DNA from: Trypanosoma brucei
Taxonomy: Eukaryota
Direction: 5' to 3'
Assembly: GCA_000002445.1 (NCBI GenBank)
Contig: CP000068.1
Coordinates: 64,001-128,000, forward strand
DNA: 64,000 nucleotides
The position numbers and the translations under genes are program-made. Below are positions 1,101 to 46,902 of the stretch, piece after piece. The notes beneath the pieces were generated by a model. The model had not been told where the DNA came from. It did no database searches and saw only the letters and a program-made list of their open reading frames with translations. Numbering within the stretch: position 1 is the first letter of the stretch; every line of letters begins with the position of its first letter.

Positions 1101-1898
1101 TCATTTACCTATACCAGGTGTGCCAATAACAATATGTATCGGTGGTCTGTGAGCTGTCATTTCTACCCACCATGCTCTCAGCCTTTTTTCGACTTTATAC
1201 CACACGCGCATGATTTCACGACGGATATATACATGCTGAGATACTGCTTTGCGCCCCGTAGTGTAGTCCAATGCAAACCTGTTGTATGGCCAACCCTTCT
1301 CCGAAGTGAGAACAAAAATCTCCAAACCATTGGGTCTCTCCGGCACTTGTGCATCAACATTCGCAGGAAGAGGAGTTATATCCACCTCTTCTTCGGTCCA
1401 TATGCGCTGTGGTCTTCCGCAGAATACCTTCATTCCAAGTGGCTCTGCATCATAACCCGACATCACATAACTCCATTTCGCATCATAAATGGAATCGTAA
1501 GGACCTTCAACTTTGACATCACAAGCTGTTTGGGCAGCTCGTATCCTTGCTTCTTTGGCGGCCATCAATGCTGCATCCAGTTTTCCTCTCACTACGGGAC
1601 CAACAAATTCCCCGATTTGAGCAGTTGCATTCTCTTCCCATTGTTGCATGCCTCCAATTCCATTACGAGGCAGATAAATAACTGCCCTCAGTAATTGAAA
1701 CTCATCGATATCCCGTATTTCTTCAAGAATCCCTGTATAAACAACATATTCTTCCGGATCCATAACAAACTCAACCATTGACACGTTAGGGGTGCCTAGG
1801 GTTTCACCGATGTGTTGATTCAAAAATTCATGAAGTTTCATATCCTTCAAACCCGCATATTCTTCCAGCAACACATCTTTGACATTGCTTCCCAACAC
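1101..1898 (-). pseudogene. Truncated ORF (265 aa) ending ...HIVIGTPGIGK followed by a stop, immediately before the ingi 5' end. I interpret it as the N-terminal fragment of a retrotransposon hot spot (RHS)-family gene interrupted by the ingi insertion.
   Basis: The ORF terminates in the middle of a Walker-A (GxxGxGK[ST]) motif 29 bp from the ingi terminus. RHS genes are a trypanosome multigene family known for a P-loop motif and for a conserved retroelement insertion hot spot. I recognise only the architecture; I have not confirmed the family by alignment. Confidence 0.45.
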
Positions 1899-4800: not shown

Positions 4801-6508
4801 GTAAGAATCTTGCACTTTGGCATCTAGTTATGAAAGGCCAATTTTTAATCGGATGCTCGGTCAGCACATTCGGTTTCTGTAACATAACAGATCCACTGCC
4901 ACAGTCCCATACATCTCTCACTCCACACTTTGTACCCTCGACGTTATGTAGTAACAAAAGCGCTTCAGACCACTCCATCATCACACAATCCCCCTAAGAA
5001 GAGGATGCACGAGAGGTTATAAGCAAGTGGAAATTAAACGGTTCCCCATTTACATTCCGAGAACTTTCCAGAAATCAAAAGAAATTCACTGATGGAGATT
5101 CCGTAGCGTTTGTGGAGTCCTGTAAGCCCTACTTCACTTCTAACCAGTATTATCGTGATATCTTAATTTCCGAGCAGATCCGCGCACTGCAGTTTATTGA
5201 ATTATGTGGAGTGAACTGCAAATTCAGTCATGAAGAGCGTTTCTGAAGGGTCGGTGGGCTTTTGAATGCGACTCATCAGGGGCGACGTGACCTCCTTAAA
5301 ATATCCACTGAGGAACTTAACTTTATTCAACTGTTAACTGCGATGACGACGTTAGTGGCGGCCGCCTGATGGGCGGTGGCTTTGGTGGCTGTATTCTCCT
5401 CATTTAAAAAAAAAGCTGTGAACCGTGTAGCAAAAAGCGTTCAAAAGAAATTTAAGACTAAGTTTGGAACTACCTGCGAGACTTATCCAGTTGAGCTCGG
5501 TGACGGCACCTTCGCCCGTCCCCCATGGAATGGTGCGTGGGGAAAGCTGTGAAAATGGCTTATGATGTCTGATCTTTCATGTTGTTTTTGTTTGGGGGGA
5601 GGGGTGGTCTTATTTTGTTTCTTATTGATTTTCATTACTTCAATTATTCTTTGGTTTTTTTCTTTCTGCAGTTGTTGTTCCTCAGTTGGTGTATTTCCAG
5701 CCTCGTTTTTTTTTTGGTTTTGCCACATAGTTACACTTCCCTATGTGAGCTACTGGAAACAAGCAAGATTAAAAAAAAAAAATTATTATTATTATTATTT
5801 CCGCAACGCATCCCAACTTGGGTGTACAGGTAAGACGTCATGATGTTCTTTGTTACTATTAAATATGGTTGTAATGCATTTGAAAACTTTTTTTTCTTTT
5901 TCAGAGTCTTCTTGTTGTTTTTTTTGGTTATTTGTTTTTTAATTTGTTTTGCATTTCCCCTTCCCCCTCCTCCACAACGTCTTTTCCGCACTGAGACGAT
6001 GGCTTGCGAAAGGAGCGGTAATTGCTTCTGTGCTGTCATGTAGTAGAAACGCATTTCCATTATTTGTTATTTACTGTTAGTTATTATAAGTTGTTTGTTT
6101 ATTATATTTTTTGTTTGTATGGGAGTCCATGCAATTCATTAACTCTTCTCTCTTAGTGTTGGTGTTGGGTTGAAAAATGTTTTGGATATTTCCTTTTTTT
6201 TCTTTTTTTATCGGAACAAATCAGTGAAAATAAAATATAACAGAGTTAGCATACGAAAGGGGTCTTTTATTGCTTCGATGTGCAATCATTCTTTTATGAC
6301 ACGTGTGAATTTTAAAAATGAAAGAAAAGAAATGCAACACTTCCCTTCTCTTATTTTAATGAAGAAAAGTCAAAATTAGAAATTATTTTTTCATCATTTT
6401 TCATTATTTGTCCATTGCGTCAGCGGTTAGTTCTTTTATGGAATTATGTTTTTTTATGTTGCCGGGCTCCGGCACCATTATGATTTCTCGTCGTTATTTC
6501 TTTATATT

Positions 6509-6511
<3 letters not shown>

Positions 6512-6539
<28 letters not shown>
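6512..6539. repeat. (AT)n microsatellite
   Basis: Read directly from the sequence. Confidence 0.95.
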
Positions 6540-6542
<3 letters not shown>

Positions 6543-8588
6543 TAAATATATAAACCTACACGCACATCGACGCGAAAGAAGAGCCAACAATGGCATTGCA
6601 TTTATGATGATGTGAGGAGAAGTGTCGATGTTTATTTGTTGAGACATTCGGAATATTTTGCTTATGGGCGAATTGTTTTCTTTTTTTCCCTCCTCTTTTT
6701 CGTCAAAAACAAAAAGAAAAGCTTCACATGCCCTATGAAGTTTATTTGAGGAGTTGTTAACGACAGTCGGGTGGAATGACTCCGTAGGGCACATAAGGCA
6801 AAAAAAAAAAGGAGGTAGAGGATATAATCAAGTGCCTCATATTCGGGGCACCGAGATGTCAAACGTCTACATATTAAAGTTCGAAACTGAGAGAAACAAA
6901 TATCAAATAACAATAATAATAATATTGGAAAGATGGCCGTTAATAGTTGCAAAAGTGTGAGAAATGGAGGACTGCGTTCCGTTAGTTGTTGAAAGGCATC
7001 GGTGAAGTTACGGCATTTATGCATATGGCAGCCACCAACGGCCGAAGTTACGCGGGACTGGAGCATGGGGAACAGGTCGCCACCGCCCAATACATTTTTG
7101 CAACCCGGACCTCGTTATTCCATCGACGAGTTGGCGCAGCTGGTTTCCCTCTCCGGGATTGTTTTGGGGTCATTCCTGTGCGCACCAGAATTGAATCCCC
7201 TACCAAACTAATTCCACAATAAAGCAACTTTGACTCTTGGCATATCCAGTCCTTGCGGCTTCGACTCGCCATGCGACTGCCGCTTCTCCTTTCCGGCAAT
7301 GCATCCGACAACAACACGATAACGCGGACCATGCAAAAATGAGGGGTCTTATGGGGGAAAGATAAGCTCCGGAAGCACCAACCGACCCACTTCCCGAAGG
7401 CACTCAATTTCCTCGACGCCTTTATAAAGAGAGACGAGAACACTTTTCTGCCAGTCTCTTTTGAGGGGATGGAGCACATGGCCAAATCCAGAGTTTCAGG
7501 GCCTGAACTCGAAAGTACAAAAACGTGTGAAACACCACATGTTTCGCTACTCTTGTCCCATTTATCGCAGACGAGCTTTTTCGGCACCGCAACGAAACAT
7601 GATATGGAGAGGTACACAACCCTTTATTCAAGTCCGAGCACCGATTCCGCTATAAACACAACATGATGAAGATCGTTATTTAGTCCAAATTGCCAAACGA
7701 TGATGAGTCGCGCAAAAAAAAAAGGGGAGGAGCCTTAAAACCGCGACACCGATAATCGCGGTGTATATTCAACTGAAAAGTTTTCAACAGACACAATCGC
7801 TTATTCCCCTCAATATACACAACTATGCTTCAATCCGATTAGCTAATCAACGTTTGCGACAAATGAACCAATGATTATCCCTACGAGCCCATGAAACAGT
7901 GGTCATAAAAAAAAAAAAACTAAACCCAAGGAAATAAAAGAAAATAAAAAGAAAAACAAACAGAAAGAGGGGAAACTGAAAAGGAAGGAGTCTCAAGAAA
8001 TAACACTACACACACATGCATTAACTCCCATGATGGGCAGGGGTGTAATATTGCCAACGAGCCTCATCGATCAACAAAATTCATTTCCCCAGAAACTTTA
8101 AGCCCTGCATTACTGCCAGAATTTGCAAAAAGAAAAATGTTATTACGCAAAACGATAGACCTTACAGCCACGCATGCGGAAAATTAAATGTTAGGAAGGG
8201 TAAGAGGTTTAAAAAAAAACGCATAGGAGAGGCCTTGAGCTGATTTCAATCAAAGTTTAAATGGCTCCTTTATTCGTCCTCCTCCAAACGTTTTTTATGG
8301 GAGGGCGAACCGTACCGTCACGACACGTTACAGCTTCAAGGCTGTTTTACTGAATGCACCGGGTCACACGCACTCTTTTTCCATCAAACGCTACGTAGTC
8401 TCTCTGTCCCTCCTCTTTTTCATTTTCTTTTTGCTCTCGTTTTTTTTTATTTTTCCCGTGCTTTCAGGACAGATACGAGCAAAAGAAGGAAAAGAAAAAA
8501 AAAGAGTTTGAAGACACATTCATTCATTCATTGCCACCGCATCCGTACCGACGGGGGCCTAACGAAAAGATTACGTTCAGTTATTGAT

Positions 8589-15856: not shown

Positions 15857-18800
15857 TCAATTAGCATCATTTTCCGTCATTCCGTTATTTACTTCCCGCC
15901 CACTGGACACCGGCACACGAGAACATTGCTTTGGGGAGGCGTCGGAAAGGTACGGATTGCAGGAAATGATGATGAGGGAAGAGCCACTTTGGGTAGTAAC
16001 ACCTGACGATGCGGACATCCCGCGGGCTCCGTGTTCCGCAATGTGTCCAACCTTCACTGCAATACGGCGAATAACTTCTTCACAATACGCATCGTCCCAC
16101 ACACGCCCCTTCCGCCGTGGTAAAGAAACATTCCAACGCTCGCAGTATGGAACCAATAGTCGCTCTCGCTGTGGAGCTTTGAAGGTACTGAGTAAGGAAT
16201 GCAGGGCATCTGAAATAGTTTGTGCCGATCCACTCAGCTCCATGTGGGTGGAACTATGTTCACTAGCAGAGGTACTAGTAGGGTCCTCACTCTCTTCGAA
16301 AGAGAAATCACGATCCAAGCGGAGCCCAGCGAATGCACGGCCGGGAACGGCATTCAATTGGTACATTACAATAGGCTCAGGAACACCACGCAACGCAACA
16401 GGTCCAAGCGAGGTCGCATCAAGTTGGTCACGCTCCTCAGTGCTCAGTGACATGTACGCCGCATACGTCAGCAGCACTTGCCCACCATTTGTCACACTTT
16501 CTGTGCGCGCAGCCATGTTTGGTGTGCGTCCGTAGTAGTCGTATCCTTTTGTTACTTCATCATGTCGGATATCACATAACCCGGTGTGGATTCCGATTCT
16601 TACACGCAGCCCATTCCACAACTGGCGGTAAACCTCGGGATCCAGACGTGCACTTGGTGGAATATAGTGATCATCATCCTCAGCTTTCTGCATCTCGGAA
16701 TTGCGGTAGAAATCATCGAAAACAGTTGTCCCCCAACAGTGTTGCAGGAATGATCGCTGAATGTCACTCGCGAGTTCCACAGCGGTGGATGTACTGCGGC
16801 AGGCAATCATAAAGGAGTCCCCAACGGTCTTCACCTCGTAACAACCATACTGCATGATGAGTGAACGGATCATAGTGTGATGAGCCAACACGGCATCGGG
16901 CATCAGTTCCGGGTGAGTAGACCACTGCGCAGTGCTGCTTTCGATGTCCGTGAAGATGAGAGTTACAGGATCTGTTGGTTCCCTCGGTGCTCTGTTGTTG
17001 TCTCGAGAATTAAACACAAACAAGCACAGAAGCACACACAATGCAATAGCAAGTGCAACAAAGAAAACAGAACCAACAATTATACCGGCAAGTTGTGAAG
17101 GACTAAGGGAAGACCCATCCATTACAGCATACTCCAAAGATGGCGTCACGCCACGACTCAGTACAGGCACACGGGGGTCTAGTACCCGAGACATCGACCA
17201 CACAGAAATGTTTCCCGCCCCAAAATTAGTCTCGCAACGGTTAGCCGCCGTTACACGTCCCTTAACACACTCAACATCACTGTACGGTCCGTAGTGCATG
17301 TCATCCACACGAATGTTTGATTCTGTGTAAAAAAAATCAACTAACAACGAGGGGCTTATCCTCTTCATGCGTGGAACGATGCTTCGAAGCAGACGCGCAG
17401 TGGCAAAGCCCCGCAACCTCAGCGGTGTCCATGTAGATTCACGGGGGTTGTAGGCATGAAACATTGCAACTGTATCCGATTCCGTATTTTTATCGGCCCA
17501 GTGTGGTAGATTCGTCGCGAACACAAGTCGTGAGGCGCTTACAACTGCCGCAGGGGTCGCATTAAATGCTTCCACAAACTCATCATACAATTGAGCGACT
17601 TCGGAGAAGAGAACATACACGCGTCTATCATTTCGAGATTGGAGATACTGTGCAATCGCATGGGCATCTGGAGGTGTGAGGCCGATGGCCACAACATCCC
17701 CACTGCTTGGTAGATGGTCCACCAGAGTGTCACTCTCTTTAAGTAACAACATTGACTTAAGTGCCACATCAAATGTCATTAGCGATTTGTTGAGTACATC
17801 ACCAATTACTTCCGCCCTTTTACTTCGAATAGCGGCAGACACGGCACCGGTAGAGGCATTTGAGAGGTGCATAGCAATCACGTACAATTGTTGCCGAACC
17901 GTAGGCGAGAGCAGTAACACATTTCTACGGAACTTACCCACTATGGGGCTGGCCGCCAAAGGATTGATGAAGGTGACATTTGGAAGCCGGAGTGCATCCC
18001 TCGTCACTCCACCAAAGACAGCGGATACTATCCTGTTGTCCACCAATTGCGCGAGATCACCTGCCACTTCACTCAGCTTCCTCCTAAAGGGGTGAAAAAA
18101 GAGTCGATCATTCTCGAAACTGCCATCAGCGGGGACAGATGATGCACCTTCGTACCATCTCCTGGCGGAACGCTCGGTAATGTAACTATCCACAATCAGA
18201 ATGAAAACACCATATAGTGGGGCATACACCTTCACATTTGCACTCGAACACTGTGATACACCCCACATCAAGAAACCATTTATTACGGGGTACATACGAA
18301 ACCCATCCACGACTTCCTTCATGTAAACAGCGCTTCCACCCTGATTGCAGTTGCACATAGCACCCTGCATGGACGCAAACTCGCCGCACTCATTACCATA
18401 GTCACCCACGACAAGGTCATCTACAACGTAACGACGCTGGCGGTACAGAGAGTCCATAAAGGCCGTGCGGTCCGTCAACACATCAGTACTGTGTAGTGCC
18501 TGCGAAAGGATCTCACCAGTGAGCCATCCAGTCATCATCAGATCAGAAATGGCCTCGTCGGTACTAAAGTGTGGGGGTTTCGAAAAGCCACCCCATTCAC
18601 TATTGGATTTTAAATGGTTATCCATCTCCTCCCGAAACCGCCGGACAGACGCAAGGGTTAGTAAATTCGAAGGAGGAATTGTGCCCGTGATGATTAATTG
18701 ACCATCGTTCAGAGACACATTGGAAGCATACAAAGCGTCACGCCAAGTTCTTATTAGAGGGCCTTGTGATGTCGACGGAGCCAAAACATACATCTGTCTC

Positions 18801-19567
18801 GCCCGCTCATCCTTCACAATCCTCCCTATGAACCATTCGGTGGCGGGGTTGCGCACGGGGGCAAACAGGAGCACAGCCTGTGGACGTGTCTCAACAAACT
18901 GGTTCCATTCAGCTGCCAGGGCATCTTCATCTGCTCCAACTCCACCAGCTGCAGCAAATGCACCACAGAGTTCATGGCCCATCATGGATGATATATCCAG
19001 AGCGAATTCATACAATGCCTCACCGGATGGTGTTCCCTTCAAGTACGTTATTCCCACACGCGGGAGACCAAGGAAAACAACGGCATAACGGAAAAGTGCA
19101 AGTAACTCAGCATTCGGCTCCACACTTATGAAGTAAAGATGGGGATCCCACTCACGCACTTCAGTGGAGAAAGCGAGTGGGCCGAAACTAACTGCACCGT
19201 GTTTACTCAGCTCACCCTTCACCCACATAGTATTGGGTCCGCCAAAGGGACCAAATACAATCATCAGCTTGCCTTCGCTTTCCTTAACCACGGACTCGAA
19301 GAACTCAGCGACGGGAGTATCGTATGATGGTGGTCGAATGAAAGAAACCCTTGCCTTGGAGTTTGTTTTCCAACCGCGAGCTGTCAGGGATGCTTCAAAA
19401 CCAGCGTTAAGTGAATCCACCTCCACCTCCTGAACATCAGGGCTATACATCAGGGAGAGGACATTTATTGTTATATTGTCTTCAGCCCTTCCTGTAGTTG
19501 AGAAGGAAAGCAATAGAAATAGTAGCTGCAGAAGCGGTAGCGACAGCTTCGACAGCAGTGAGGTCAT
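15857..19567 (-). CDS. GRESAG4: Receptor-type adenylate cyclase, ESAG4/GRESAG4 family, copy 1 (1236 aa). It has a signal peptide, a large extracellular ligand-binding-like domain, a single transmembrane helix (LAGIIVGSVFFVALAIALCVLLCLFVF) and a cytosolic class-III cyclase catalytic domain (VTLIFTDIESSTAQW...YEVKTVGDSFMIACRS...).
   Basis: The catalytic-domain motifs (FTDIESST, KTVGDSFM) and overall architecture match the kinetoplastid receptor adenylate cyclases. Confidence 0.9.
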   Translation of the reverse strand: MTSLLSKLSLPLLQLLFLLLSFSTTGRAEDNITINVLSLMYSPDVQEVEVDSLNAGFEASLTARGWKTNSKARVSFIRPPSYDTPVAEFFESVVKESEGKLMIVFGPFGGPNTMWVKGELSKHGAVSFGPLAFSTEVREWDPHLYFISVEPNAELLALFRYAVVFLGLPRVGITYLKGTPSGEALYEFALDISSMMGHELCGAFAAAGGVGADEDALAAEWNQFVETRPQAVLLFAPVRNPATEWFIGRIVKDERARQMYVLAPSTSQGPLIRTWRDALYASNVSLNDGQLIITGTIPPSNLLTLASVRRFREEMDNHLKSNSEWGGFSKPPHFSTDEAISDLMMTGWLTGEILSQALHSTDVLTDRTAFMDSLYRQRRYVVDDLVVGDYGNECGEFASMQGAMCNCNQGGSAVYMKEVVDGFRMYPVINGFLMWGVSQCSSANVKVYAPLYGVFILIVDSYITERSARRWYEGASSVPADGSFENDRLFFHPFRRKLSEVAGDLAQLVDNRIVSAVFGGVTRDALRLPNVTFINPLAASPIVGKFRRNVLLLSPTVRQQLYVIAMHLSNASTGAVSAAIRSKRAEVIGDVLNKSLMTFDVALKSMLLLKESDTLVDHLPSSGDVVAIGLTPPDAHAIAQYLQSRNDRRVYVLFSEVAQLYDEFVEAFNATPAAVVSASRLVFATNLPHWADKNTESDTVAMFHAYNPRESTWTPLRLRGFATARLLRSIVPRMKRISPSLLVDFFYTESNIRVDDMHYGPYSDVECVKGRVTAANRCETNFGAGNISVWSMSRVLDPRVPVLSRGVTPSLEYAVMDGSSLSPSQLAGIIVGSVFFVALAIALCVLLCLFVFNSRDNNRAPREPTDPVTLIFTDIESSTAQWSTHPELMPDAVLAHHTMIRSLIMQYGCYEVKTVGDSFMIACRSTSTAVELASDIQRSFLQHCWGTTVFDDFYRNSEMQKAEDDDHYIPPSARLDPEVYRQLWNGLRVRIGIHTGLCDIRHDEVTKGYDYYGRTPNMAARTESVTNGGQVLLTYAAYMSLSTEERDQLDATSLGPVALRGVPEPIVMYQLNAVPGRAFAGLRLDRDFSFEESEDPTSTSASEHSSTHMELSGSAQTISDALHSLLSTFKAPQRERLLVPYCERWNVSLPRRKGRVWDDAYCEEVIRRIAVKVGHIAEHGARGMSASSGVTTQSGSSLIIISCNPYLSDASPKQCSRVPVSSGREVNNGMTENDAN

Positions 19568-19752
19568 GCGTACTTTTAACTTGTTCGTGTGATCTTAAAT
19601 ACTACGTGAGGAAATGGAAGGAATGAAACGATACAGAGGCAACTGATAGGTTTTGCGAAAGGAACACCAGGGAATCACATGCGCACAGAAACAAATCATC
19701 ACAAAGGGTGATACAACTGCATGGAATAAATGTTGAAACGAGTTCTTTTGAC
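16040..19752. repeat. Direct repeat unit 1 (~3.7 kb) of the GRESAG4 duplication. It is paired with 21293-25073, and the units are separated by ~1.5 kb of unique sequence.
   Basis: The sequence is near-identical across most of its length, for example 19568-19750 vs 24889-25070 and 16322-16560 vs 21566-21800. Three non-homologous blocks interrupt the match. Confidence 0.8.
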
Positions 19753-21264: not shown

Positions 21265-24200
21265 TCAGGAAGCATAACGACCAACAAACGGCCCCACCTT
21301 CACTGCAATACGGCGAATAACTTCCTCACAATACGCATCGTCCCAAGCGTATGAACCACCCATTGGCAGGGGAACATTCCAACGCTCGCAATACAGTGCC
21401 AATAGTCGCTCTCGCTGTGGAGGTTTGAAGGTACTGAGTAAGGAATGCAGGGCATCTGAAATAGTTTGTGCCGATCCACTCAGCTTCAGGCTGTCAAAAC
21501 TTAAACTGTTCGAGGAAAAGCTGAAGTTCTCGACATCTTCATCAAAATAAAACCCACGATCCAAGCGGAGCCCAGTGAATGCACGGCCGGGAACGGCATT
21601 CAATTGGTACATTACAATAGGTTCAGGAACACCACGCAACGCAACAGGTCCAAGCGAGGTCGCATCAAGTTGGTCACGCTCCTCAGTGCTCAGTGACATG
21701 TACGCCGCATACGTCAGCAGCACTTGCCCACCATTTGTCACACTTTCTGTGCGCGCAGCCATGTTTGGTGTGCGTCCGTAGTAGTCGTATCCTTTTGTTA
21801 CTTCATCATGTCGGATATCACATAACCCGGTGTGGATTCCGATTCTTACACGCAGCCCATTCCACAACTGGCGGTAAACCTCGGGATCCAGACGTGCACT
21901 CGGTGGAATATAGTGATCATCATCCTCAGCTTTCTGCATCTCGGAATTGCGGTAGAAATCATCGAAAACAGTTGTCCCCCAACAGTGTTGCAGGAATGAT
22001 CGCTGAATGTCACTCGCGAGTTCCACAGCGGTGGATGTACTGCGGCAGGCAATCATAAAGGAGTCCCCAACGGTCTTCACCTCGTAACAACCATACTGCA
22101 TGATGAGTGAACGGATCATAGTGTGATGAGCCAACACGGCATCGGGCATCAGTTCCGGGTGAGTAGACCACTGCGCAGTGCTGCTTTCGATGTCCGTACA
22201 AACAATGGTTACAACGCCACATTCACCACCCCGTAGCATCTCAAACATTGGAACACACACTTCACTGTCGTTGATAAATGTAACTAGGTCACTTGACGAC
22301 TTGGGCACAGTATCCCGTTGTCCACGGACGCGCACAAACAAGCACAGAAGCACACACAATGCAATAGCAAGTGCAACAAAGAAAACAGAACCAACAATTA
22401 TACCGGCAAGTTGTGAAGGACTAAGGGAAGACTCATCCATTACAGCATACTCCAAAGATGGCGTCACACCCCGACTCAGTACAGGCACACGGGGGTCTAG
22501 TACCCGAGACATCGACCACACAGAAATGTTTCCCGCCCCAAAATTAGTCTCGCAACGGTTAGCCGCCGTTACACGTCCCTTAACACACTCAACATCACTG
22601 TACGGTCCGTAGTGCATGTCATCCACACGAATGTTTGATTCTGTGTAAAAAAAATCAACTAACAACGAGGGGCTTATCCTCTTCATGCGTGGAACGATGC
22701 TTCGAAGCAGACGCGCAGTGGCAAAGCCCCGCAACCTCAGCGGTGTCCATGTAGATTCACGGGGGTTGTAGGCATGAAACATTGCAACTGTATCCGATTC
22801 CGTATTTTTATCGGCCCAGTGTGGTAGATTCGTCGCGAACACAAGTCGTGAGGCGCTTACAACTGCCGCAGGGGTCGCATTAAATGCTTCCACAAACTCA
22901 TCATACAATTGAGCGACTTCGGAGAAGAGAACATACACGCGTCTATCATTTCGAGATTGGAGATACTGTGCAATCGCATGGGCATCTGGAGGTGTGAGGC
23001 CGATGGCCACAACATCCCCACTGCTTGGTAGATGGTCCACCAGAGTGTCACTCTCTTTAAGCAACAACATTGACTTAAGTGCCACATCAAATGTCATTAG
23101 CGATTTGTTGAGTACATCACCAATTACTTCCGCCCTTTTACTTCGAATAGCGGCAGACACGGCACCGGTAGAGGCATTTGAGAGGTGCATAGCAAGCACG
23201 TACAATTGTTGCCGAACCGTAGGCGAGAGCAGTAACACATTTCTATTGAAACGATTGATCCGAGGATAAAGCAGCAGTGGATCGACGAATACAGGGCCTG
23301 GAAGTTCCAGAATATCTTCATCAACAGCACCATAGATAATGACTATCTCCCTCATATTGAGCAAAGCCTCTAGAGCTATGACCCCCATCTGCGTGCTTAG
23401 TGGAAGCACATCAAAGTGTAAAATATCTTCTCCGAAATCATCACGAATGACAGGAGCTGAAGACACACCTTCGTACCATCTCTTGGCGGAACGATAAGAA
23501 AAGAAATAATCACTCAAGTGCATGACAAAACCACTCAATGGAATACTGATCTTCACGTCCCTACTCGAACACTGTGATGCACCCCAGGCTAGGAATCCTC
23601 TCTGAAGCGGCTCTATACGAAACCCATCCACGACTTCCTTCATGTAAACAGCGCTTCCACCCTGATTGCAGTTGCACATAGCACCCTGCATGGACGCAAA
23701 CTCGCCGCACTCATTACCATAGTCACCCACGACAAGGTCATCTACAACGTAACGACGCTGGCGGTACAGAGAGTCCATAAAGGCCGTGCGGTCCGTCAAC
23801 ACATCAGTACTGTGTAGTGCCTGCGAAAGGATCTCACCAGTGAGCCATCCAGTCATCATCAGATCAGAAATAGCCTCGTCGGTACTAAAGTGTGGGGGTT
23901 TCGAAAAGCCACCCCATTCACTATTGGATTTTAAATGGTTATCCATCTCCTCCCGAAACCGCCGGACAGACGCAAGGGTTAGTAAATTCGAAGGAGGAAT
24001 TGTGCCCGTGATGATTAATTGACCATCGTTCAGAGACACATTGGAAGCATACAAAGCGTCACGCCAAGTTCTTATTAGAGGGCCTTGTGATGTCGACGGA
24101 GCCAAAACATACATCTGTCTCGTCCGCTCATCCTTCACAATCCTCCCTATGAACCATTCGGTGGCGGGGTTGCGCACGGGGGCAAACAGGAGCACAGCCT

Positions 24201-24888
24201 GTGGACGTGTCTCAACAAACTGGTTCCATTCAGCTGCCAGGGCATCTTCATCTGCTCCAACTCCACCAGCTGCAGCAAATGCACCACAGAGTTCATGGCC
24301 CATCATGGATGATATCTCCAGAGCGAATTCATACAATGCCTCACCGGATGGTGTTCCCTTCAAGTACGTTATTCCCACACGCGGGAGACCAAGGAAAACA
24401 ACGGCATAACGGAAAAGTGCAAGTAACTCAGCATTCGGCTCCACACTTATGAAGTAAAGATGGGGATCCCACTCACGCACTTCAGTGGAGAAAGCGAGTG
24501 GGCCGAAACTAACTGCACCGTGTTTACTCAGCTCACCCTTCACCCACATAGTATTGGGTCCGCCAAAGGGACCAAATACAATCATCAGCTTGCCTTCGCT
24601 TTCCTTAACCACGGACTCGAAGAACTCAGCGACGGGAGTATCGTATGATGGTGGTCGAATGAAAGAAACCCTTGCCTTGGAGTTTGTTTTCCAACCGCGA
24701 GCTGTCAGGGATGCGTCAAAACCAGCGTTAAGTGAATCCACCTCCACCTCCTGAACATCAGGGCTATACATCAGGGAGAGGACATTTATTGTTGTATTGT
24801 CTTCAGCCCTTCCTGTAGTTGAGAAGGAAAGCAATAGAAATAGTAGCTGCAGAAGCGGTAGCGACAGCTTCGACAGCAGTGAGGTCAT
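21265..24888 (-). CDS. GRESAG4: Receptor-type adenylate cyclase, ESAG4/GRESAG4 family, copy 2 (1207 aa). It is a direct-repeat paralogue of copy 1 with three diverged blocks and a shorter, different C-terminal tail.
   Basis: The first ~420 aa are nearly identical to copy 1, and it has the same catalytic motifs. The flanking 5' sequence (24889-25073) duplicates 19568-19752. Confidence 0.9.
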   Translation of the reverse strand: MTSLLSKLSLPLLQLLFLLLSFSTTGRAEDNTTINVLSLMYSPDVQEVEVDSLNAGFDASLTARGWKTNSKARVSFIRPPSYDTPVAEFFESVVKESEGKLMIVFGPFGGPNTMWVKGELSKHGAVSFGPLAFSTEVREWDPHLYFISVEPNAELLALFRYAVVFLGLPRVGITYLKGTPSGEALYEFALEISSMMGHELCGAFAAAGGVGADEDALAAEWNQFVETRPQAVLLFAPVRNPATEWFIGRIVKDERTRQMYVLAPSTSQGPLIRTWRDALYASNVSLNDGQLIITGTIPPSNLLTLASVRRFREEMDNHLKSNSEWGGFSKPPHFSTDEAISDLMMTGWLTGEILSQALHSTDVLTDRTAFMDSLYRQRRYVVDDLVVGDYGNECGEFASMQGAMCNCNQGGSAVYMKEVVDGFRIEPLQRGFLAWGASQCSSRDVKISIPLSGFVMHLSDYFFSYRSAKRWYEGVSSAPVIRDDFGEDILHFDVLPLSTQMGVIALEALLNMREIVIIYGAVDEDILELPGPVFVDPLLLYPRINRFNRNVLLLSPTVRQQLYVLAMHLSNASTGAVSAAIRSKRAEVIGDVLNKSLMTFDVALKSMLLLKESDTLVDHLPSSGDVVAIGLTPPDAHAIAQYLQSRNDRRVYVLFSEVAQLYDEFVEAFNATPAAVVSASRLVFATNLPHWADKNTESDTVAMFHAYNPRESTWTPLRLRGFATARLLRSIVPRMKRISPSLLVDFFYTESNIRVDDMHYGPYSDVECVKGRVTAANRCETNFGAGNISVWSMSRVLDPRVPVLSRGVTPSLEYAVMDESSLSPSQLAGIIVGSVFFVALAIALCVLLCLFVRVRGQRDTVPKSSSDLVTFINDSEVCVPMFEMLRGGECGVVTIVCTDIESSTAQWSTHPELMPDAVLAHHTMIRSLIMQYGCYEVKTVGDSFMIACRSTSTAVELASDIQRSFLQHCWGTTVFDDFYRNSEMQKAEDDDHYIPPSARLDPEVYRQLWNGLRVRIGIHTGLCDIRHDEVTKGYDYYGRTPNMAARTESVTNGGQVLLTYAAYMSLSTEERDQLDATSLGPVALRGVPEPIVMYQLNAVPGRAFTGLRLDRGFYFDEDVENFSFSSNSLSFDSLKLSGSAQTISDALHSLLSTFKPPQRERLLALYCERWNVPLPMGGSYAWDDAYCEEVIRRIAVKVGPFVGRYAS

Positions 24889-25073
24889 GCGTACTTTTAA
24901 CTTGTTCGTGTGATCTTAAATACTACGTGAGGAAATGAAGGAATGAAACGATACAGAGGCAACTGATAGGTTTTGCGAAAGGAACACCAGGGAATCACAT
25001 GCGCACAGAAACAAATCATCACAAAGGGTGATACAACTGCATGGAATAAATGTTGAAACGAGTCCGTATAAAC
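21293..25073. repeat. Direct repeat unit 2 of the GRESAG4 duplication
   Basis: See unit 1. Homology ends at about 21293 (3' side) and about 25073 (5' side). Confidence 0.8.
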
Positions 25074-40474: not shown

Positions 40475-42043
40475 TTAAATATCACTGTCGAAACCTGCTG
40501 CGGTCTTCGTATTTTTGCTTTTAGCATTAGCCTCCTCTATGTTTATATCATCCTTCACCTCAGCCTTCCTACGGCCCCTAATAACAAAGAACACAAGCAA
40601 CCCAAGCAACAGCAAAAGCAAAGGAATTAAAAATATTAACACTTTCGTTGTCCCAATCCAGCCACTCTTGGCCTCGCTGCCCTCATCATCATGGTCAGCG
40701 TTTACGTCGTCCTCTTCACCACTTTCTTTCGACTCCTCTTTCAATTCCTCAGCCAATTTTTCTACATCCTTCTTCAGTTTCTCTTCAGATTCCTCGGCGC
40801 CCTCCTTGTCCCACCGCGCAACTTCTGCATCTTCGGTGGCTTTGACGCGCTCCTCCTCCGCTTCCTCAAATGCCTTTCTCGAATCTTTCACCTGCTTTTC
40901 TGCAGCCTTTTCAGTTGCCTCAGCTTCCTCAACAGCCTCCAGCAACATCTTTTTCTTTTCTTCACTCACCGGCTGACCCGCCTCCTTTGCCTTCTCAGCC
41001 TTCTCAGCTTCCAAGCGCCTGGCCTCCGCCTGTTCCTCAGCAGCCACTCGTCTCGCCTCAGCCTCCTCCAAAGCCTTTCTCGCTTCCTCAGCAGCCTTCT
41101 CAGCAGCCTGGCGTTTCGCCTCCTCCTCCGCCGCCCGCGCCTCTGCTGCTTTTTTCCATTCCAGATACTGTGCAAGAGACTCCCTTCCAATCTGTTGAAA
41201 TCTCTGAGCATAGTGAGTCACCCCCAAGGAATTGCGGACTAGAGTTTCAAGTTTGAGTATCGCATACCTTGCTGCATCGTAGTCCCACCGCCAACTTTCA
41301 AGCAGCGTGCATGGTTTATCGGAGGAGGACGCACTTCTTGACGAATGGCCGCTGCTGCACTCAACAGCATCCCTTGCATCAGCCTTGGGCTTTGCTCGAT
41401 TCCATGCCTCGACTGCCCCCTCCATGTTGGAGAAGGTCACATCAGTTTTTGCAGCCGGAATAGACTTGTACTCGCAATATATAACGTATGCGCGAGCGTC
41501 ATCATGTCCAAAATTTCGATGATAGTCATGTTTATACGCACTGGGATCGCAGTTTGCGTTAGCCATATGGTCAAACGAATCACGGATTGCTTCCTTGTTT
41601 ATACAGTGCCATTTTAGCAACTCCTTGAGAACTTTGCTCGAGTTCGCTGCAGCCCTCTTCGCCTTCTCCCATGCCTCCTCAACGCTCCTTTTCGTTCGGT
41701 TCGCTACACGTTGGACACCACGCATCTGATCCAACATCTTTTGTCCCAGCGCCGCCCTCATATCATCATGCTCTGACACTTTCTGAAAAATTTCTCTCGC
41801 GACCTTCAAATATTTCCAGGATTGCCTCTCTAGAAAGTCTGCTCTATCAGCAACACCGTCAAGCAACTTTTTCATGGTACACAGTGTCAACACAGCTTCA
41901 CCATCAAGTTTCCGCCCATTTATTGTTACATACTGCTTATATGCGACAGGTAAGTTGCTTGCCTTGGACACATCGAGCGCACATATGCCGCAGAGGAGAA
42001 ATACTGTTGCAGTAGTGCGTAATGTAACAGGCATCGTTGACAT
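40475..42043 (-). CDS. ISG75: Invariant surface glycoprotein ISG75-type, copy A (522 aa). It has a signal peptide, a cysteine-containing variable ectodomain, an E/A/K/R-rich coiled-coil stalk, a transmembrane helix and a lysine-containing cytoplasmic tail (RGRRKAEVKDDINIEEANAKSKNTKTAAGFDSDI).
   Basis: I base the family call on length (~523 aa), type-I topology, the coiled-coil stalk and the Lys-containing tail, all of which match my recollection of ISG75. The gene occurs in a multicopy array. Confidence 0.8.
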   Translation of the reverse strand: MSTMPVTLRTTATVFLLCGICALDVSKASNLPVAYKQYVTINGRKLDGEAVLTLCTMKKLLDGVADRADFLERQSWKYLKVAREIFQKVSEHDDMRAALGQKMLDQMRGVQRVANRTKRSVEEAWEKAKRAAANSSKVLKELLKWHCINKEAIRDSFDHMANANCDPSAYKHDYHRNFGHDDARAYVIYCEYKSIPAAKTDVTFSNMEGAVEAWNRAKPKADARDAVECSSGHSSRSASSSDKPCTLLESWRWDYDAARYAILKLETLVRNSLGVTHYAQRFQQIGRESLAQYLEWKKAAEARAAEEEAKRQAAEKAAEEARKALEEAEARRVAAEEQAEARRLEAEKAEKAKEAGQPVSEEKKKMLLEAVEEAEATEKAAEKQVKDSRKAFEEAEEERVKATEDAEVARWDKEGAEESEEKLKKDVEKLAEELKEESKESGEEDDVNADHDDEGSEAKSGWIGTTKVLIFLIPLLLLLLGLLVFFVIRGRRKAEVKDDINIEEANAKSKNTKTAAGFDSDI

Positions 42044-42633
42044 CCGTTAAAACTTATCTGTCACCCTCCTCTGATCACCACTTCCTCAGCTTGTCAGTCT
42101 CAACCTCACGTTACCTTGGCCGTAGAAATATGCAATCAACTACAGTCAAATATCCAAGAGAAAATAAGAAAGGGAAGGGAATCGATAGAAACGACCAAAG
42201 AGTAAAAATATGCGCGATTGAGCAAAGGAAATAATATGCGTATCCAATAGCGGATTTGTTGCAGTTCACCCGAACATGGACAACCTCCACGGCAGTCTTT
42301 CATTACACCCTTCATAGTAGCGCAAGGAATGTATGAATACCCTTAACACATGAAATAAGCAATACGTATGAAAAAAGGCATCAGCACTGGTATCCGCAGC
42401 TACCAATGCGGCCCTACCTCAAACCGGTAGTATGTGGGAAAAGGGTAATAACCTTGAGATGAGCTGCAAGGAACTGGTCAGACCGAAACATTACAAGCAA
42501 CGGTATAAAAAGCAAGAAACGAAAACATATAAAAAGCACCCTTATATCACTTATAGCAACCGATTTCAATTCCAAAATCATACACACAAATGCCTATACC
42601 TGTTCCTTCGTGTTCGGGCACCTGTGATAGTGT
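42044..42633 (-). repeat. Conserved ISG75 intergenic/5'-flank repeat (~590 bp) carrying the polypyrimidine tract and 5'UTR. Copies lie at 42044-42633, 44206-44801, 46374-46790, 48562-48850 (partial), 57149-57423 (partial, plus orientation) and 58993-59582 (plus orientation).
   Basis: The copies are near-identical. For example 42037-42240 vs 44199-44400 vs 46367-46570 vs 48561-48760 match the reverse complement of 57230-57430 and 59390-59590. Confidence 0.85.
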
Positions 42634-44205
42634 TTAAATATCACTGTCAAGACCTGCTGCGGTCTTCGTATTTTTGCTTTTAGCATTAGCTTCCCCTATG
42701 TTTATATCATCCTTCACCTCAGCCTTCCTACGGCCCCTAATAACAAAGAACACAAGCAACCCAAGCAACAGCAAAAGCAAAGGAATTAAAAATATTAACA
42801 CTTTCGTTGTCCCAATCCAGCCACTTTTGGCCTCGCTGCCCTCATCATCATGGTCAGCATTTACGTCGTCCCCTTCACCACTTTCTTTCGACTCCTCTTT
42901 CAATTCCTCAGCCAATTTTTCTACATCCTTCTTCAGTTTCTCTTCAGATTCCTCGGCGTCCTTCTTTTCCTCTTTTGCAGCCTCTGCATCTTCGGTGGCT
43001 TTGACGCGCTCCTCCTCCGCTTCCTCAAATGCCTTTCTCGAATCTTTTGCCTGCTTTTCTGCGGCCTTTTCAGTTGCCTCAGCTTCCTCAACAGCCTCCA
43101 GCAACATCTTTTTCTTTTCTTCACTCACCGGCTGACCCGCCTCCTTTGCCTTCTCAGCCTTCTCAGCTTCCAAGCGCCTGGCCTCCGCCTGTTCCTCAGC
43201 GGCCACTCGTCTCGCCTCAGCCTCCTCCAAAGCCTTTCTCGCTTCCTCAGCAGCCTTCTCAGCAGCCTGGCGTTTCGCCTCCTCCTCCGCCGCCCGCGCC
43301 TCTGCTGCTTTCCTTCTCTCCTCATGCTGTGCAAGAGACTCTTTGTAACCCTCTAGCACTTTCTTAGAGTAGTGAAAAACCCTTAAAGCTAGGGTCGCAT
43401 CCTTCTCGACCTTCGATATTAAATGTGCCGTTACTCTGTAGTTCCAAAGCCAGTTCTCCAGCACTGTGCATGGTCGTCCAGCGGGAGCTGCTTGGTGAGC
43501 GGGTGCGCCTGCTCCACATATCATAACACGAGCGGAGTACGGTTTGGGTTTTACCTGGTTCCATATTTCGAGTGCCCTCTCCATGTTGGAGAACGTCGTT
43601 TGTGTAATGACGCTGTCCACTACTTTGTAGTTGCATAAAATGCTGTATTTATGGGGATCAAGCCTCGAATGTTCATAGTAGTAGTCTCGCTTGTACGCGT
43701 TGGGTAAGCAGTTCTCATTTCGACCGTAGCCAGGAAGGACGTCATGACTCGCCGTCCTGTCAACACAATGCCACGTCAGCACTTGGTCGAGAGCTGCACT
43801 TGCATTTGCCGCCGCTGCCTTAGCCCGCTCTCCTGTGCCCCCCATGTACTTGATTATGCCATTGCCCAGCGATTTCATGTACTGTATTTCCCGAAGCTTA
43901 TTTGAAGGGAATGATAACTCCATTCCCTTGTCATCCGATATTTTACGAAAATTCGCATTCGCATTGTTGACATACATATACGCCTGCTGTTCAAACATGT
44001 CAACCCTGGAGTTCACGCCGTCAAGCATCTTCTTCATTTCGCACAGTGTCGTAGCCCCTTGTCCATCAAGTTGCCGAGCACCTGCTGTTACATATTGTTT
44101 TTGTGCAACAGAGAGCTCCTCCGCCCAAGTCACATCGAGCGCACATATGCCGCAGAGGAGAAATACTGTTGCAGTAGTGCGTAATGTAACAGGCATCGTT
44201 GACAT
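42634..44205 (-). CDS. ISG75: ISG75-type, copy B (523 aa). Its N-terminal domain differs in type from copy A; its C-terminal half is near-identical.
   Basis: As for copy A. Confidence 0.8.
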   Translation of the reverse strand: MSTMPVTLRTTATVFLLCGICALDVTWAEELSVAQKQYVTAGARQLDGQGATTLCEMKKMLDGVNSRVDMFEQQAYMYVNNANANFRKISDDKGMELSFPSNKLREIQYMKSLGNGIIKYMGGTGERAKAAAANASAALDQVLTWHCVDRTASHDVLPGYGRNENCLPNAYKRDYYYEHSRLDPHKYSILCNYKVVDSVITQTTFSNMERALEIWNQVKPKPYSARVMICGAGAPAHQAAPAGRPCTVLENWLWNYRVTAHLISKVEKDATLALRVFHYSKKVLEGYKESLAQHEERRKAAEARAAEEEAKRQAAEKAAEEARKALEEAEARRVAAEEQAEARRLEAEKAEKAKEAGQPVSEEKKKMLLEAVEEAEATEKAAEKQAKDSRKAFEEAEEERVKATEDAEAAKEEKKDAEESEEKLKKDVEKLAEELKEESKESGEGDDVNADHDDEGSEAKSGWIGTTKVLIFLIPLLLLLLGLLVFFVIRGRRKAEVKDDINIGEANAKSKNTKTAAGLDSDI

Positions 44206-44801
44206 CCGTTAAAACTTATCTGTCACCCTCCTCTGATCACCACTTCCTCAGCTTGTCAGTCTCAACCTCACGTTACCTTGGCCGTAGAAATATGCAATCA
44301 ACTACAGTCAAATATCCAAGAGAAAATAAGAAAGGGAAGGGAATCGATAGAAACGACCAAAGAGTAAAAATATGCGCAATTGAGCAAAGGAAATAATATG
44401 CGTATCCAATAGCGGATTTGTTGCAGTTCACCCGAACATGGACAACCTCCACGGCAGTCTTTCATTACACCCTTCATAGTAGCGCAAGGAATGTATGAAT
44501 ACCCTTAACACATGAAATAAGCAATACGTATGAAAAAAGGCATCAGCACTGGTATCCGCAGCTACCAATGCGGCCCTACCTCAAACCGGTAGTATGTGGG
44601 AAAAGGGTAATAACCTTGAGATGAGCTGCAAGGAACTGGTCAGACCGAAACATTACAAGCAACGGTATAAAAAGCAAGAAACGAAAACATATAAAAAGCA
44701 CCCTTATATCACTTATAGCAACCGATTTCAATTCCAGTTCCAAAATCATACACACAAATGCCTATGTCTGTTCCTTCGTGTTCGGGCACAAGAGAAGGTG
44801 G

Positions 44802-46373: not shown

Positions 46374-46902
46374 CCGTTAAAACTTATCTGTCACCCTCCT
46401 CTGATCACCACTTCCTCAGCTTGTCAGTCTCAACCTCACGTTACCTTGGCCGTAGAAATATGCAATCAACTACAGTCAAATATCCAAGAGAAAATAAGAA
46501 AGGGAAGGGAATCGATAGAAACGACCAAAGAGTAAAAATATGCGCGATTGAGCAAAGGAAATAATATGCGTATCCAATAGCGGATTTGTTGCAGTTCACC
46601 CGAACATGGACAACCTCCACGGCGGTCTTTCATTACACCCTTCATAGTAGCGCAAGGAATGTATGAATACCCTTAACACATGAAATAAGCAATACGTATG
46701 AAAAAAGGCATCAGCACTGGTATCCGCAGCTACCAATGCGGCCCTACCTCAAACCGGTAGTATGTGGGAAAAGGGTTGTAGTTGTAAAGTTTTCTGTAAA
46801 ATTCCTGAAATGTGACAAAAGATTGTGAAAAGACGAAACCGGCAGCAGATGGGGGAAGGGGGAAGGGAGCGGCGTTGTCAAGTGCGACGAAGATTTTTTA
46901 CG

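What the first reader, a model, noticed from the sequence alone, without database searches (positions are those of the whole stretch)
17925..18300. ~380-bp non-homologous cassette inside otherwise near-identical GRESAG4 ectodomains
Copy 1 (17925-18300) and copy 2 (23240-23622) are near-identical on both sides but differ almost completely within this block. The proteins read ...GFRMYPVINGFLMWGVSQCSSANVKVYAPLYGVFILIVDSY... vs ...GFRIEPLQRGFLAWGASQCSSRDVKISIPLSGFVMHLSDYFF.... A short conserved island (accttcgtaccatctc) sits in the middle. This is the signature of segmental gene conversion from a third paralogue into the putative ligand-binding domain, i.e. diversification of the sensor domain.
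Basis: seen in the sequence. Interest (0 to 1): 0.55.

Follow-up and report, generated by a model that had tools for sequence, protein, structure and literature searches.

The report
Old divergent block in homogenised cyclases
Two neighbouring Trypanosoma brucei receptor adenylate cyclase genes (Tb927.5.320 and Tb927.5.330) are kept almost identical by ongoing gene conversion, except for a few anciently diverged blocks, of which the flagged sensor-domain block is the largest; this is a real but fairly ordinary case of patchy concerted evolution.

Summary
The two minus-strand genes (15857-19567 and 21265-24888; T. b. brucei TREU927 chr 5, AC320 and AC330) differ at 12 of 2869 nt outside the blocks. 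They differ at 183 of 369 aligned columns in 17928-18293 / 23246-23614, with sharp edges.

The block is homologous and in frame (about 40% aa identity), so "non-homologous" is wrong. It is also not unique. There are at least three more blocks: a juxtamembrane block with a 24-aa indel, a post-catalytic block, and the C-terminal tail with its 3'UTR.

Synonymous divergence is dS 1.26 inside the block and 0.009 outside, so the block is old sequence. Both versions are kept at orthologous loci in T. b. gambiense. In the near-identical parts, the informative sites group paralogues by genome (4 against 1). Sub-blocks swap between local copies at two short identity islands inside the block.

None of about 185 other family members carries either version, so no third-paralogue donor was found; the paralogue sample was incomplete.

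Best reading: two old, reciprocally regulated paralogues that gene conversion homogenises in patches, with the blocks left as unconverted relics. Partial gene conversion in T. brucei tandem arrays is already documented (Jackson 2007).

The parts
15857..19567 (-). Copy 1: receptor-type adenylate cyclase GRESAG4, 1236 aa, XP_844706.1 (Tb927.5.320, AC320)
   Evidence: ORF; Pfam PF25495, PF25493 and PF00211; exact match to the TREU927 protein; matches the PDB 1FX2 catalytic domain at E 1.5e-114. The Tb927.5.320 name is assigned from gene order next to Tb927.5.310 and the literature.
21265..24888 (-). Copy 2: receptor-type adenylate cyclase GRESAG4, 1207 aa, XP_844707.1 (Tb927.5.330, AC330)
   Evidence: Reported to be regulated reciprocally to AC320 through its 3'UTR (PMC4214818; PMC5879877).
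17928..18293 (-). Block B1, copy-1 (320-type) version; aa 425-547; the flagged finding
   Evidence: Against copy 2: dS 1.26, dN 0.60.
23246..23614 (-). Block B1, copy-2 (330-type) version; aa 425-549
   Evidence: 92% identical in protein to the T. b. gambiense orthologue over the whole block; the B1b part differs at 9/316 nt. At most 36% identical to any other family member sampled.
18258..18293 (-). Sub-block B1a, copy 1 (MYPVINGFLMWGV). It moves as an intact haplotype between local copies.
   Evidence: 17 variable sites swap together: Tbg330 carries the 320-type string and the T. b. equiperdum 285b-like gene carries the 330-type string.
18242..18257 (-). Identity island 1 (SQCSS; 16 identical nt; counterpart in copy 2 at 23563-23578). 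It is the recombination joint seen in the 285b-type and gambiense genes.
   Evidence: The L002 gene switches from 330-type to 320-type at this point.
18145..18172 (-). Identity island 2 (RSA(R/K)RWYEG; 28 nt with one mismatch; counterpart in copy 2 at 23466-23493).
   Evidence: The codons are identical between the copies, but the motif is absent from the three other paralogues with DNA in hand (RATMRWFLG, RASLRYLNG, RANVDWDVG). A run of 17 or more identical nt has p about 0.002 in simulation.
16952..17014 (-). Block B2, copy 1: cytosolic juxtamembrane segment directly after the TM helix (aa 852-872); the family-typical version
   Evidence: 71-86% identical to all but one of the other paralogues (57% to P0042).
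22198..22332 (-). Block B2, copy 2: the same segment with a 24-aa insert, unique to the 330 lineage
   Evidence: Nothing in the sampled proteins or loci matches the insert.
16240..16330 (-). Block B3, copy 1: segment directly after the catalytic domain (aa 1080-1110)
   Evidence: dS 2.0.
21486..21576 (-). Block B3, copy 2
15857..16177 (-). Block B4 plus the C-terminal tail, copy 1. About 82% identical to copy 2 for 130 nt, then unrelated; the 3'UTR further downstream is also unrelated.
   Evidence: B4 dS 0.62.
21265..21423 (-). Block B4 plus the short C-terminal tail, copy 2
19568..19743 (-). Shared 176 nt upstream of the copy-1 ATG (counterpart in copy 2 at 24889-25063). This is the 5' limit of the homogenised tract; sequence further upstream is unrelated.

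Best explanation
Tb927.5.320 and Tb927.5.330 are two old, functionally differentiated neighbouring paralogues of the GRESAG4 receptor adenylate cyclase family. Recurrent gene conversion between them, and with the third local copy of the 285b type, keeps about 2.9 kb of coding sequence and 176 nt of 5' flank at about 99.6% identity. A few segments have escaped: B1 in the sensor ectodomain, B2 after the TM helix, B3 after the catalytic domain, and the C-terminal tail with the 3'UTR. These keep ancient divergence. The flagged block is therefore an unconverted relic, and the near-identity around it is the recent, derived state. Inside the block, two short patches (16 nt and 28 nt) have been homogenised. 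They serve as recombination joints, so sub-blocks re-assort between local copies and strains. Shown here: the block-wise divergence, the dS discontinuity, the orthologous conservation of both versions, the by-genome grouping of informative sites in the shared parts, and the chimaeric copies. Inferred: the direction of overwriting (320-like backbone into the 330 locus), and why the blocks persist (selection for isoform-specific function, divergence too high for heteroduplex extension, or both).
For: (1) Sharp edges: 183 of 369 columns differ in the block against 12 of 2869 nt outside it. (2) dS is 1.26 in B1 and 2.0 in B3, against 0.009 in the shared regions; dN/dS is about 0.5 in B1, so both versions are old coding sequence under constraint. 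(3) Four-taxon site patterns with T. b. gambiense: B1b 152 by-locus and 0 by-genome, B2 35/0, B3 40/0, B4 24/0. The shared regions show 4 by-genome and 1 by-locus, and that one site lies 50 nt from the B1 edge. Paralogue differences (12 and 9 per 2869 nt) are no greater than orthologue differences (12 and 15). (4) Homology stops 176 nt upstream of the ATG, and the tails and 3'UTRs are unrelated, so this is not a simple recent tandem duplication. (5) Copy 2 carries the family-outlier version in B2 (24-29% against 57-86% for copy 1) and B3 (20-37% against 40-60%), and is lower in B1 (25-33% against 35-45%). One divergent ancestor at the 330 locus explains all blocks at once. (6) Chimaeras exist. 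The 285b-type genes (P0047, P0032, P0044) are 330-type in B1a and 320-type afterwards, and in L002 such a gene has the 330 upstream flank and the 320 downstream flank. Gambiense 330 (P0005) shows the reciprocal B1a pattern. T. equiperdum P0007, at the 320 locus, has 330-type B1 and B2. (7) Identity island 2 shares exact codons between the copies, but the motif is absent from the three other paralogues with DNA in hand, so it is a local homogenised patch and not a family-wide constraint. (8) The literature reports partial gene conversion and chimaeric copies in 21 of 47 T. brucei tandem arrays, including a GRESAG4 array (PMC1855330), and reciprocal early/late procyclic regulation of AC330 and AC320 through different 3'UTRs (PMC4214818; PMC5879877).
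Against: The by-genome signal in the shared regions rests on only four sites. Homogenising a backbone that was originally about 50% identical in protein needs recombination between strongly diverged sequences. That is plausible in T. brucei but was not shown here. Copy 2 is not the outlier everywhere: at the 3' end of B1 its PRINRFN fits the family consensus better than copy 1's PIVGKFR. The paralogue sample was incomplete, so a donor carrying the 330-type blocks could still exist. P0007 comes from a 10.8-kb contig and could be an assembly chimaera.
Confidence: 0.62

Rival explanations
1. 320 and 330 are a recent duplicate pair, and the 330-type (or 320-type) block was imported by segmental gene conversion from a third, divergent GRESAG4 paralogue, as in VSG mosaic formation.
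For: The edges are sharp and the block content is old. Segmental conversion between diverged genes is established in T. brucei (PMC1855330; PMC2854126). My paralogue sample was incomplete: only 14 proteins from the 90%-identity cluster search, plus representatives of 50%-identity clusters.
Against: No donor among about 185 other family proteins or five extra loci; the best outside matches are 36% and 45%. Four or more separate imports into the same gene would be needed, including the tail and 3'UTR. The flanks of the pair are unrelated, so a recent duplication is not visible. Both versions are already fixed at orthologous loci in T. b. gambiense and the T. equiperdum lineages.
Confidence: 0.22
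2. The block diverged in place after a recent duplication, through positive selection or local hypermutation of the sensor domain.
For: Orthologue divergence between T. b. brucei and T. b. gambiense is about 5-fold higher inside B1b than in the shared regions, for both versions (7/313 and 9/316 against 12 and 15 per 2869 nt; Fisher p 0.0015 and 0.0003).
Against: Synonymous divergence between the two versions is near saturation (dS 1.26), against 0.009 in the flanks, and dN/dS is about 0.5. Selection on amino acids cannot produce that. The edges are abrupt, and there are indels.
Confidence: 0.03
3. Assembly artefact: a mis-joined or collapsed repeat in the reference sequence.
For: Near-identical tandem genes are prone to collapse. 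One related contig (L006, 10.8 kb) could be a chimaera.
Against: Both block versions recur with the same edges in independent assemblies of T. b. gambiense DAL972 and the T. equiperdum lineages. Both reading frames are intact.
Confidence: 0.01

Closest known systems
Partial (allelic/ectopic) gene conversion and concerted evolution in T. brucei tandem gene arrays (Jackson 2007, BMC Evol Biol 7:54; PMC1855330)
   Same: Neighbouring paralogues are homogenised over most of their length. Chimaeric copies have incompatible motifs and shifting breakpoints. GRESAG4 arrays are among the documented cases.
   Different: In the text passages I retrieved from that paper I found no mention of this two-gene locus. 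Here the homogenised tracts surround islands of near-saturated divergence (dS above 1) that are conserved across subspecies, and the two genes are reciprocally stage-regulated.
HK1/HK2 hexokinase pair of T. brucei
   Same: Neighbouring genes with virtually identical coding sequences and different 3'UTRs that give opposite early/late procyclic expression (PMC5879877).
   Different: As described, HK1 and HK2 differ mainly in their 3'UTRs. AC320 and AC330 also keep large diverged coding blocks in the ectodomain, the juxtamembrane region and the tail.
VSG mosaic formation by segmental gene conversion
   Same: The same organism and recombination machinery; block-wise chimaeras with joints at short identity patches (PMC2854126).
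   Different: VSG mosaics draw on many donors and create new variants during infection. Here only two states per block are seen, they are stable across subspecies, and no outside donor was found.
Type I periplasmic binding protein / Venus-flytrap sensor domains (LivJ/LivK, class C GPCR and iGluR amino-terminal domains)
   Same: The predicted ectodomain matches LivK/LivJ-type binding proteins (Foldseek E 1e-11, TM about 0.72 normalised to the target). Pfam assigns two PBP-like domains. B1 covers the first beta-alpha-beta units of the second domain.
   Different: To my knowledge, no ligand has been identified for any trypanosome cyclase ectodomain. No solved ectodomain structure was found by sequence. 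Whether B1 residues line a cleft could not be measured with these tools.

Membership tests
Trypanosomatid receptor-type adenylate cyclase (ESAG4/GRESAG4) | Large extracellular region with two periplasmic-binding-protein-like domains | tested here: met
   PF25495 (aa 153-295, E 6e-46) and PF25493 (aa 448-814, E 1.5e-129) in both copies. The model matches LivK/LivJ folds.
Trypanosomatid receptor-type adenylate cyclase (ESAG4/GRESAG4) | N-terminal signal peptide and a single transmembrane helix between ectodomain and cyclase | tested here: met
   Read from the translation: MTSLLSKLSLPLLQLLFLLLSFSTTGRA at the N-terminus, and a hydrophobic stretch LAGIIVGSVFFVALAIALCVLLCLFV at aa 826-851. No dedicated predictor was run.
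Trypanosomatid receptor-type adenylate cyclase (ESAG4/GRESAG4) | Class III cyclase catalytic domain closely related to GRESAG4.1/4.3 | tested here: met
   PF00211; PDB 1FX2 at E 1.5e-114 and 1FX4 at E 6e-108 over aa 856-1088.
Trypanosomatid receptor-type adenylate cyclase (ESAG4/GRESAG4) | GRESAG rather than ESAG: located outside a telomeric VSG expression site | tested here: met
   Exact identity to TREU927 chr 5 proteins annotated GRESAG4. Neighbours are an ISG-like gene, an ESAG5-related gene and an ISG75 array; no VSG is present.
Concerted evolution by gene conversion with unconverted islands | Abrupt, block-wise change in divergence, including at synonymous sites | tested here: met
   50% against 99.6% nucleotide identity; dS 1.26 against 0.009.
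Concerted evolution by gene conversion with unconverted islands | In homogenised parts paralogues group by genome; in islands they group by locus | tested here: met
   Shared regions: 4 by-genome and 1 by-locus. Blocks: 251 by-locus and 0 by-genome. The shared-region count is small.
Concerted evolution by gene conversion with unconverted islands | Chimaeric copies with alternative breakpoints among local copies or strains | tested here: met
   B1a swaps in P0047, P0032, P0044 and P0005. P0007 has 330-type B1 and B2 at the 320 locus. L002 has the 330 upstream flank and the 320 downstream flank.
Segmental import from a third paralogue (VSG-like mosaic) | An identifiable donor elsewhere that carries the block at high identity | tested here: inconclusive
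   None found among 14 + 150 family proteins and five loci; best matches are 36% and 45%. Only about 10 T. brucei paralogues were sampled at full resolution, and the TREU927 assembly itself could not be searched.
Ligand-binding (cleft-lining) segment of a VFT sensor | Block residues contact the inter-lobe cleft or a ligand | not testable with these tools
   Only secondary structure and pLDDT are returned. B1 maps to model residues 398-520 (beta1-alpha1-beta2-alpha2-beta3 of domain 2), which include two low-confidence loops. To my knowledge no ligand is known.

The most novel reading that the evidence does not exclude
The unconverted islands are held apart by selection because they encode the isoform-specific functions of an early-procyclic (AC330) and a late-procyclic (AC320) cyclase. 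On this reading B1 sets what the membrane-proximal flytrap domain senses, B2 (a 24-aa insert next to the membrane) sets coupling or dimerisation, and the tail sets flagellar sub-localisation. The pair would then be a natural four-block domain-swap experiment that marks the specificity determinants of an orphan receptor family. The 5-fold excess of between-subspecies change inside B1b would reflect continuing diversification of the sensor.
Probability: 0.3. Interest if true: 0.55.

Novelty: new member of a known kind. Interest (0 to 1): 0.33.

Why it matters
To my knowledge, no ligand has been identified for any of the many T. brucei receptor adenylate cyclases, which have been linked to social motility and to manipulation of host immunity. 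AC320 and AC330 are described in the literature as having 'extremely similar' coding sequences that can be told apart only by their 3'UTRs (PMC5879877). This analysis shows that they differ in four discrete coding blocks, conserved across subspecies, against a background that gene conversion has made nearly identical. That gives a short, defined list of segments to swap when asking what makes an early-procyclic cyclase different from a late-procyclic one. It also warns that reads and peptides mapping to the shared 2.9 kb cannot be assigned to one gene. As evolutionary biology, it is a clean local example of a process already described for T. brucei tandem arrays.

Tried and rejected
(1) Protein searches with the block peptides alone returned nothing. 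This was a miss of the word index: the full proteins are in the collection. These two results are not evidence of absence, and they used two of the three searches. (2) An exact look-up of copy 1 in the contig collection failed, as did P0036; the TREU927 assembly is apparently not indexed, so the genome's own paralogues could not be scanned at the DNA level. (3) The loci for P0039, P0042 and P0035 turned out to be single-copy and added no further paralogues. (4) There is no third cyclase copy or fragment inside the window (tblastn and blastn). (5) I considered that the 24-aa B2 insert (LVTFINDSEVCVPMFEML) is a degenerate duplicate of the catalytic beta1 strand (PVTLIFTDIESS). It has no nucleotide self-similarity, so I dropped the idea for lack of support. 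(6) In-place accelerated divergence is rejected by the dS values. (7) Assembly artefact is rejected because both versions recur in independent assemblies. (8) The full-length query for the representative search exceeded 1200 aa and was rerun with aa 1-1150.
Full report
IDENTITY OF THE LOCUS. The window holds two long minus-strand ORFs, 15857-19567 (1236 aa) and 21265-24888 (1207 aa). Both have the architecture of trypanosome receptor adenylate cyclases: PF25495, PF25493 and PF00211. Their catalytic domains match PDB 1FX2 and 1FX4 (GRESAG4.1 and 4.3) at E 1e-114 and 6e-108. An exact look-up identifies them as XP_844706.1 and XP_844707.1 of T. brucei brucei TREU927 chromosome 5. They lie next to Tb927.5.310, an ESAG5-related gene and an ISG75 array. 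From gene order and the literature they are Tb927.5.320 (AC320) and Tb927.5.330 (AC330).

THE OBSERVATION. A base-by-base alignment of the genes with their flanks confirms a block with sharp edges. It runs 18293..17928 in copy 1 and 23614..23246 in copy 2, and 183 of 369 columns differ. The nearest outside differences are 258 nt away on the 5' side and 50 nt away on the 3' side. The shared regions differ at 12 of 2869 nt; Fisher p is 1e-176.

Three corrections are needed.
- The block is homologous. It is collinear, in frame and about 40% identical in protein, with a conserved framework.
- It is one of at least four blocks. B2 (16952-17014 against 22198-22332) lies directly after the TM helix and carries a 24-aa insert in copy 2. 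B3 (16240-16330 against 21486-21576) lies directly after the catalytic domain. B4 plus the C-terminal tail starts at 16177 / 21423.
- Homology also stops 176 nt upstream of the ATG, and the 3' regions are unrelated.

AGE OF THE BLOCK. Nei-Gojobori estimates give dS 1.26 and dN 0.60 for B1, dS 2.0 for B3 and dS 0.62 for B4. The shared regions give dS 0.009 and dN 0.003. A more than 100-fold jump at synonymous sites excludes recent divergence in place. A dN/dS of about 0.5 says both versions are long-standing coding sequence.

SEARCH FOR A DONOR. The window contains no third copy or fragment. Block-only protein searches failed for technical reasons. A profile search returned 14 family members, and an exhaustive search of representatives of 50%-identity clusters returned 150. 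Against all of these, the best outside match is 36% for the copy-2 version of B1 and 45% for the copy-1 version. The B2 insert matches nothing, and the flanking shared segments reach 46-62%. Five further loci added no donor. The search is incomplete, because only about ten T. brucei paralogues were available at full resolution and the TREU927 assembly could not be scanned.

COMPARISON ACROSS SUBSPECIES. The T. b. gambiense locus (L001) carries both genes in the same order. The informative sites among the four genes were classified:

| Region | By locus | By genome |
|---|---|---|
| B1b | 152 | 0 |
| B2 | 35 | 0 |
| B3 | 40 | 0 |
| B4 | 24 | 0 |
| Shared regions (2869 nt) | 1 | 4 |

The single by-locus site in the shared regions lies 50 nt from the B1 edge. 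Paralogue divergence in the shared regions (12 and 9 per 2869 nt) does not exceed orthologue divergence (12 and 15). So both block versions predate the split of the subspecies and stay at their loci, while the sequence around them has been homogenised at about the time of that split or later.

RE-ASSORTMENT. The block can be divided further.
- Its first 39 nt (B1a, 17 variable sites) move as an intact haplotype. Gambiense 330 carries the 320-type B1a.
- The 285b-type genes of TREU927 (P0047), T. b. gambiense (P0044) and T. b. equiperdum (P0032) carry the 330-type B1a followed by 320-type sequence.
- In L002 such a gene has the 330 upstream flank and the 320 downstream flank, with the switch at the SQCSS island.
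- T. equiperdum OVI has a gene at the 320 locus with 330-type B1 and B2 but 320-type B3 and tail. The contig is short, so an assembly chimaera cannot be excluded.

IDENTITY ISLANDS. Two islands sit inside B1: 16 nt at 18242-18257, and 28 nt with one mismatch at 18145-18172. They share exact codons between the two copies. The second encodes RSA(R/K)RWYEG, which is absent from the three other paralogues with DNA in hand (RATMRWFLG, RASLRYLNG, RANVDWDVG). Runs of this length are unlikely at the block's mismatch density (p about 0.002-0.006). They are best read as micro-tracts homogenised between the two copies. The first of them is demonstrably a recombination joint.

WHICH MODEL. Two histories fit a mosaic made of old blocks.
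- Relic model: an old divergent paralogue at the 330 locus was largely overwritten by 320-like sequence.
- Import model: a recent duplicate received foreign blocks.

I favour the relic model (about 0.6 against 0.2) for four reasons.
- The flanks of the two genes are unrelated, so no recent duplication is visible.
- Copy 2 carries the family-outlier version in B2 and B3, and scores lower in B1. One divergent ancestor explains this, whereas the import model needs several separate imports.
- No donor was found.
- There is direct evidence of ongoing homogenisation.

The weak points are these. The by-genome signal rests on four sites. Overwriting a strongly diverged backbone is mechanistically demanding. 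Copy 2 is not the outlier at the 3' end of B1. The donor search was incomplete.

STRUCTURE AND FUNCTION. An AlphaFold2 model of the copy-1 ectodomain (13-sequence alignment, mean pLDDT 74) matches LivK/LivJ-type periplasmic binding proteins and flytrap modules (Foldseek E 1e-11, TM about 0.72 normalised to the target). B1 (aa 425-547, model residues 398-520) covers the inter-domain linker and beta1-alpha1-beta2-alpha2-beta3 of the second, membrane-proximal domain. Two low-confidence loops fall inside it, one of them at the indel site. In LIVBP-type proteins, loops after these strands contribute to the cleft; this is general knowledge and was not measured here. So a role for B1 in what the domain senses is plausible but untested.

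[quoted passage not shown] The latter paper calls the coding sequences 'extremely similar', and I found no description of the coding blocks. Orthologue divergence inside B1b is about 5-fold higher than in the shared regions for both versions (p 0.0015 and 0.0003). The counts are small and the cause is open.

NOVELTY. Partial gene conversion, chimaeric copies and concerted evolution alongside divergence are documented for T. brucei tandem arrays, including GRESAG4 arrays (PMC1855330; PMC2854126). This is a further, clean instance at a two-gene locus. Its practical value is that the differences between two reciprocally regulated cyclases reduce to four defined blocks.

Noticed in passing
window 22198-22332 (copy 2, aa 852-896): A 24-aa insert between the TM helix and the first catalytic strand, unique to the 330 lineage and conserved in T. 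b. gambiense. Its peptide LVTFINDSE loosely resembles the catalytic beta1 strand PVTLIFTDIES, but there is no nucleotide self-similarity. Its origin is unexplained.
   Followed up: partly
window 17928-18241 / 23246-23562 (B1b) against L001: Divergence between the T. b. brucei and T. b. gambiense orthologues is about 5-fold higher inside B1b than in the shared regions, for both block versions (7/313 and 9/316 against 12 and 15 per 2869 nt). Both synonymous and non-synonymous sites are affected. The cause is unknown.
   Followed up: partly
L002 8265-23711 (T. b. equiperdum) and P0047 (TREU927, probably Tb927.5.285b): A third local cyclase copy is a 330(5')/320(3') hybrid. It lies in a segmental duplicate that has 1.7 kb of 330 upstream flank and 9.6 kb of 320 downstream flank (ISG-like gene and dioxygenase). 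L002 977-2985 also matches window 5001-7023 in inverted orientation.
   Followed up: partly
P0045 (587 aa) and P0006 (143 aa), T. b. equiperdum: The 330 orthologue in this assembly appears only as fragments, with a frameshift inside B1b. This may be decay of an early-procyclic gene in a parasite that has no insect stage, or it may be sequencing error.
   Followed up: no
P0034 (1254 aa; 17.4-kb contig): A full-length GRESAG4-type cyclase, 54% identical to copy 1, is deposited as 'hypothetical protein Smp_112590 [Schistosoma mansoni]'. It is probably trypanosome contamination in that assembly.
   Followed up: no
window 40475-48561 (-) and 57424-61151 (+): Six ISG75-family genes (522-552 aa) lie in two arrays of opposite orientation, pointing away from each other. 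This is another tandem family in which the same kind of conversion analysis could be done.
   Followed up: no
window 1101-1898 (-): A 265-aa ORF with the retrotransposon hot spot protein N-terminal domain (RHS_N) and DUF7578. It is too short for a full RHS gene and is probably an RHS fragment or pseudogene.
   Followed up: no
window 19568-19743 / 24889-25063: The homogenised tract extends exactly 176 nt upstream of both start codons, with a single 1-nt indel, and then ends abruptly. It probably includes the 5'UTR and the splice-acceptor region, so the two genes may share 5' processing signals while differing in their 3'UTRs.
   Followed up: no
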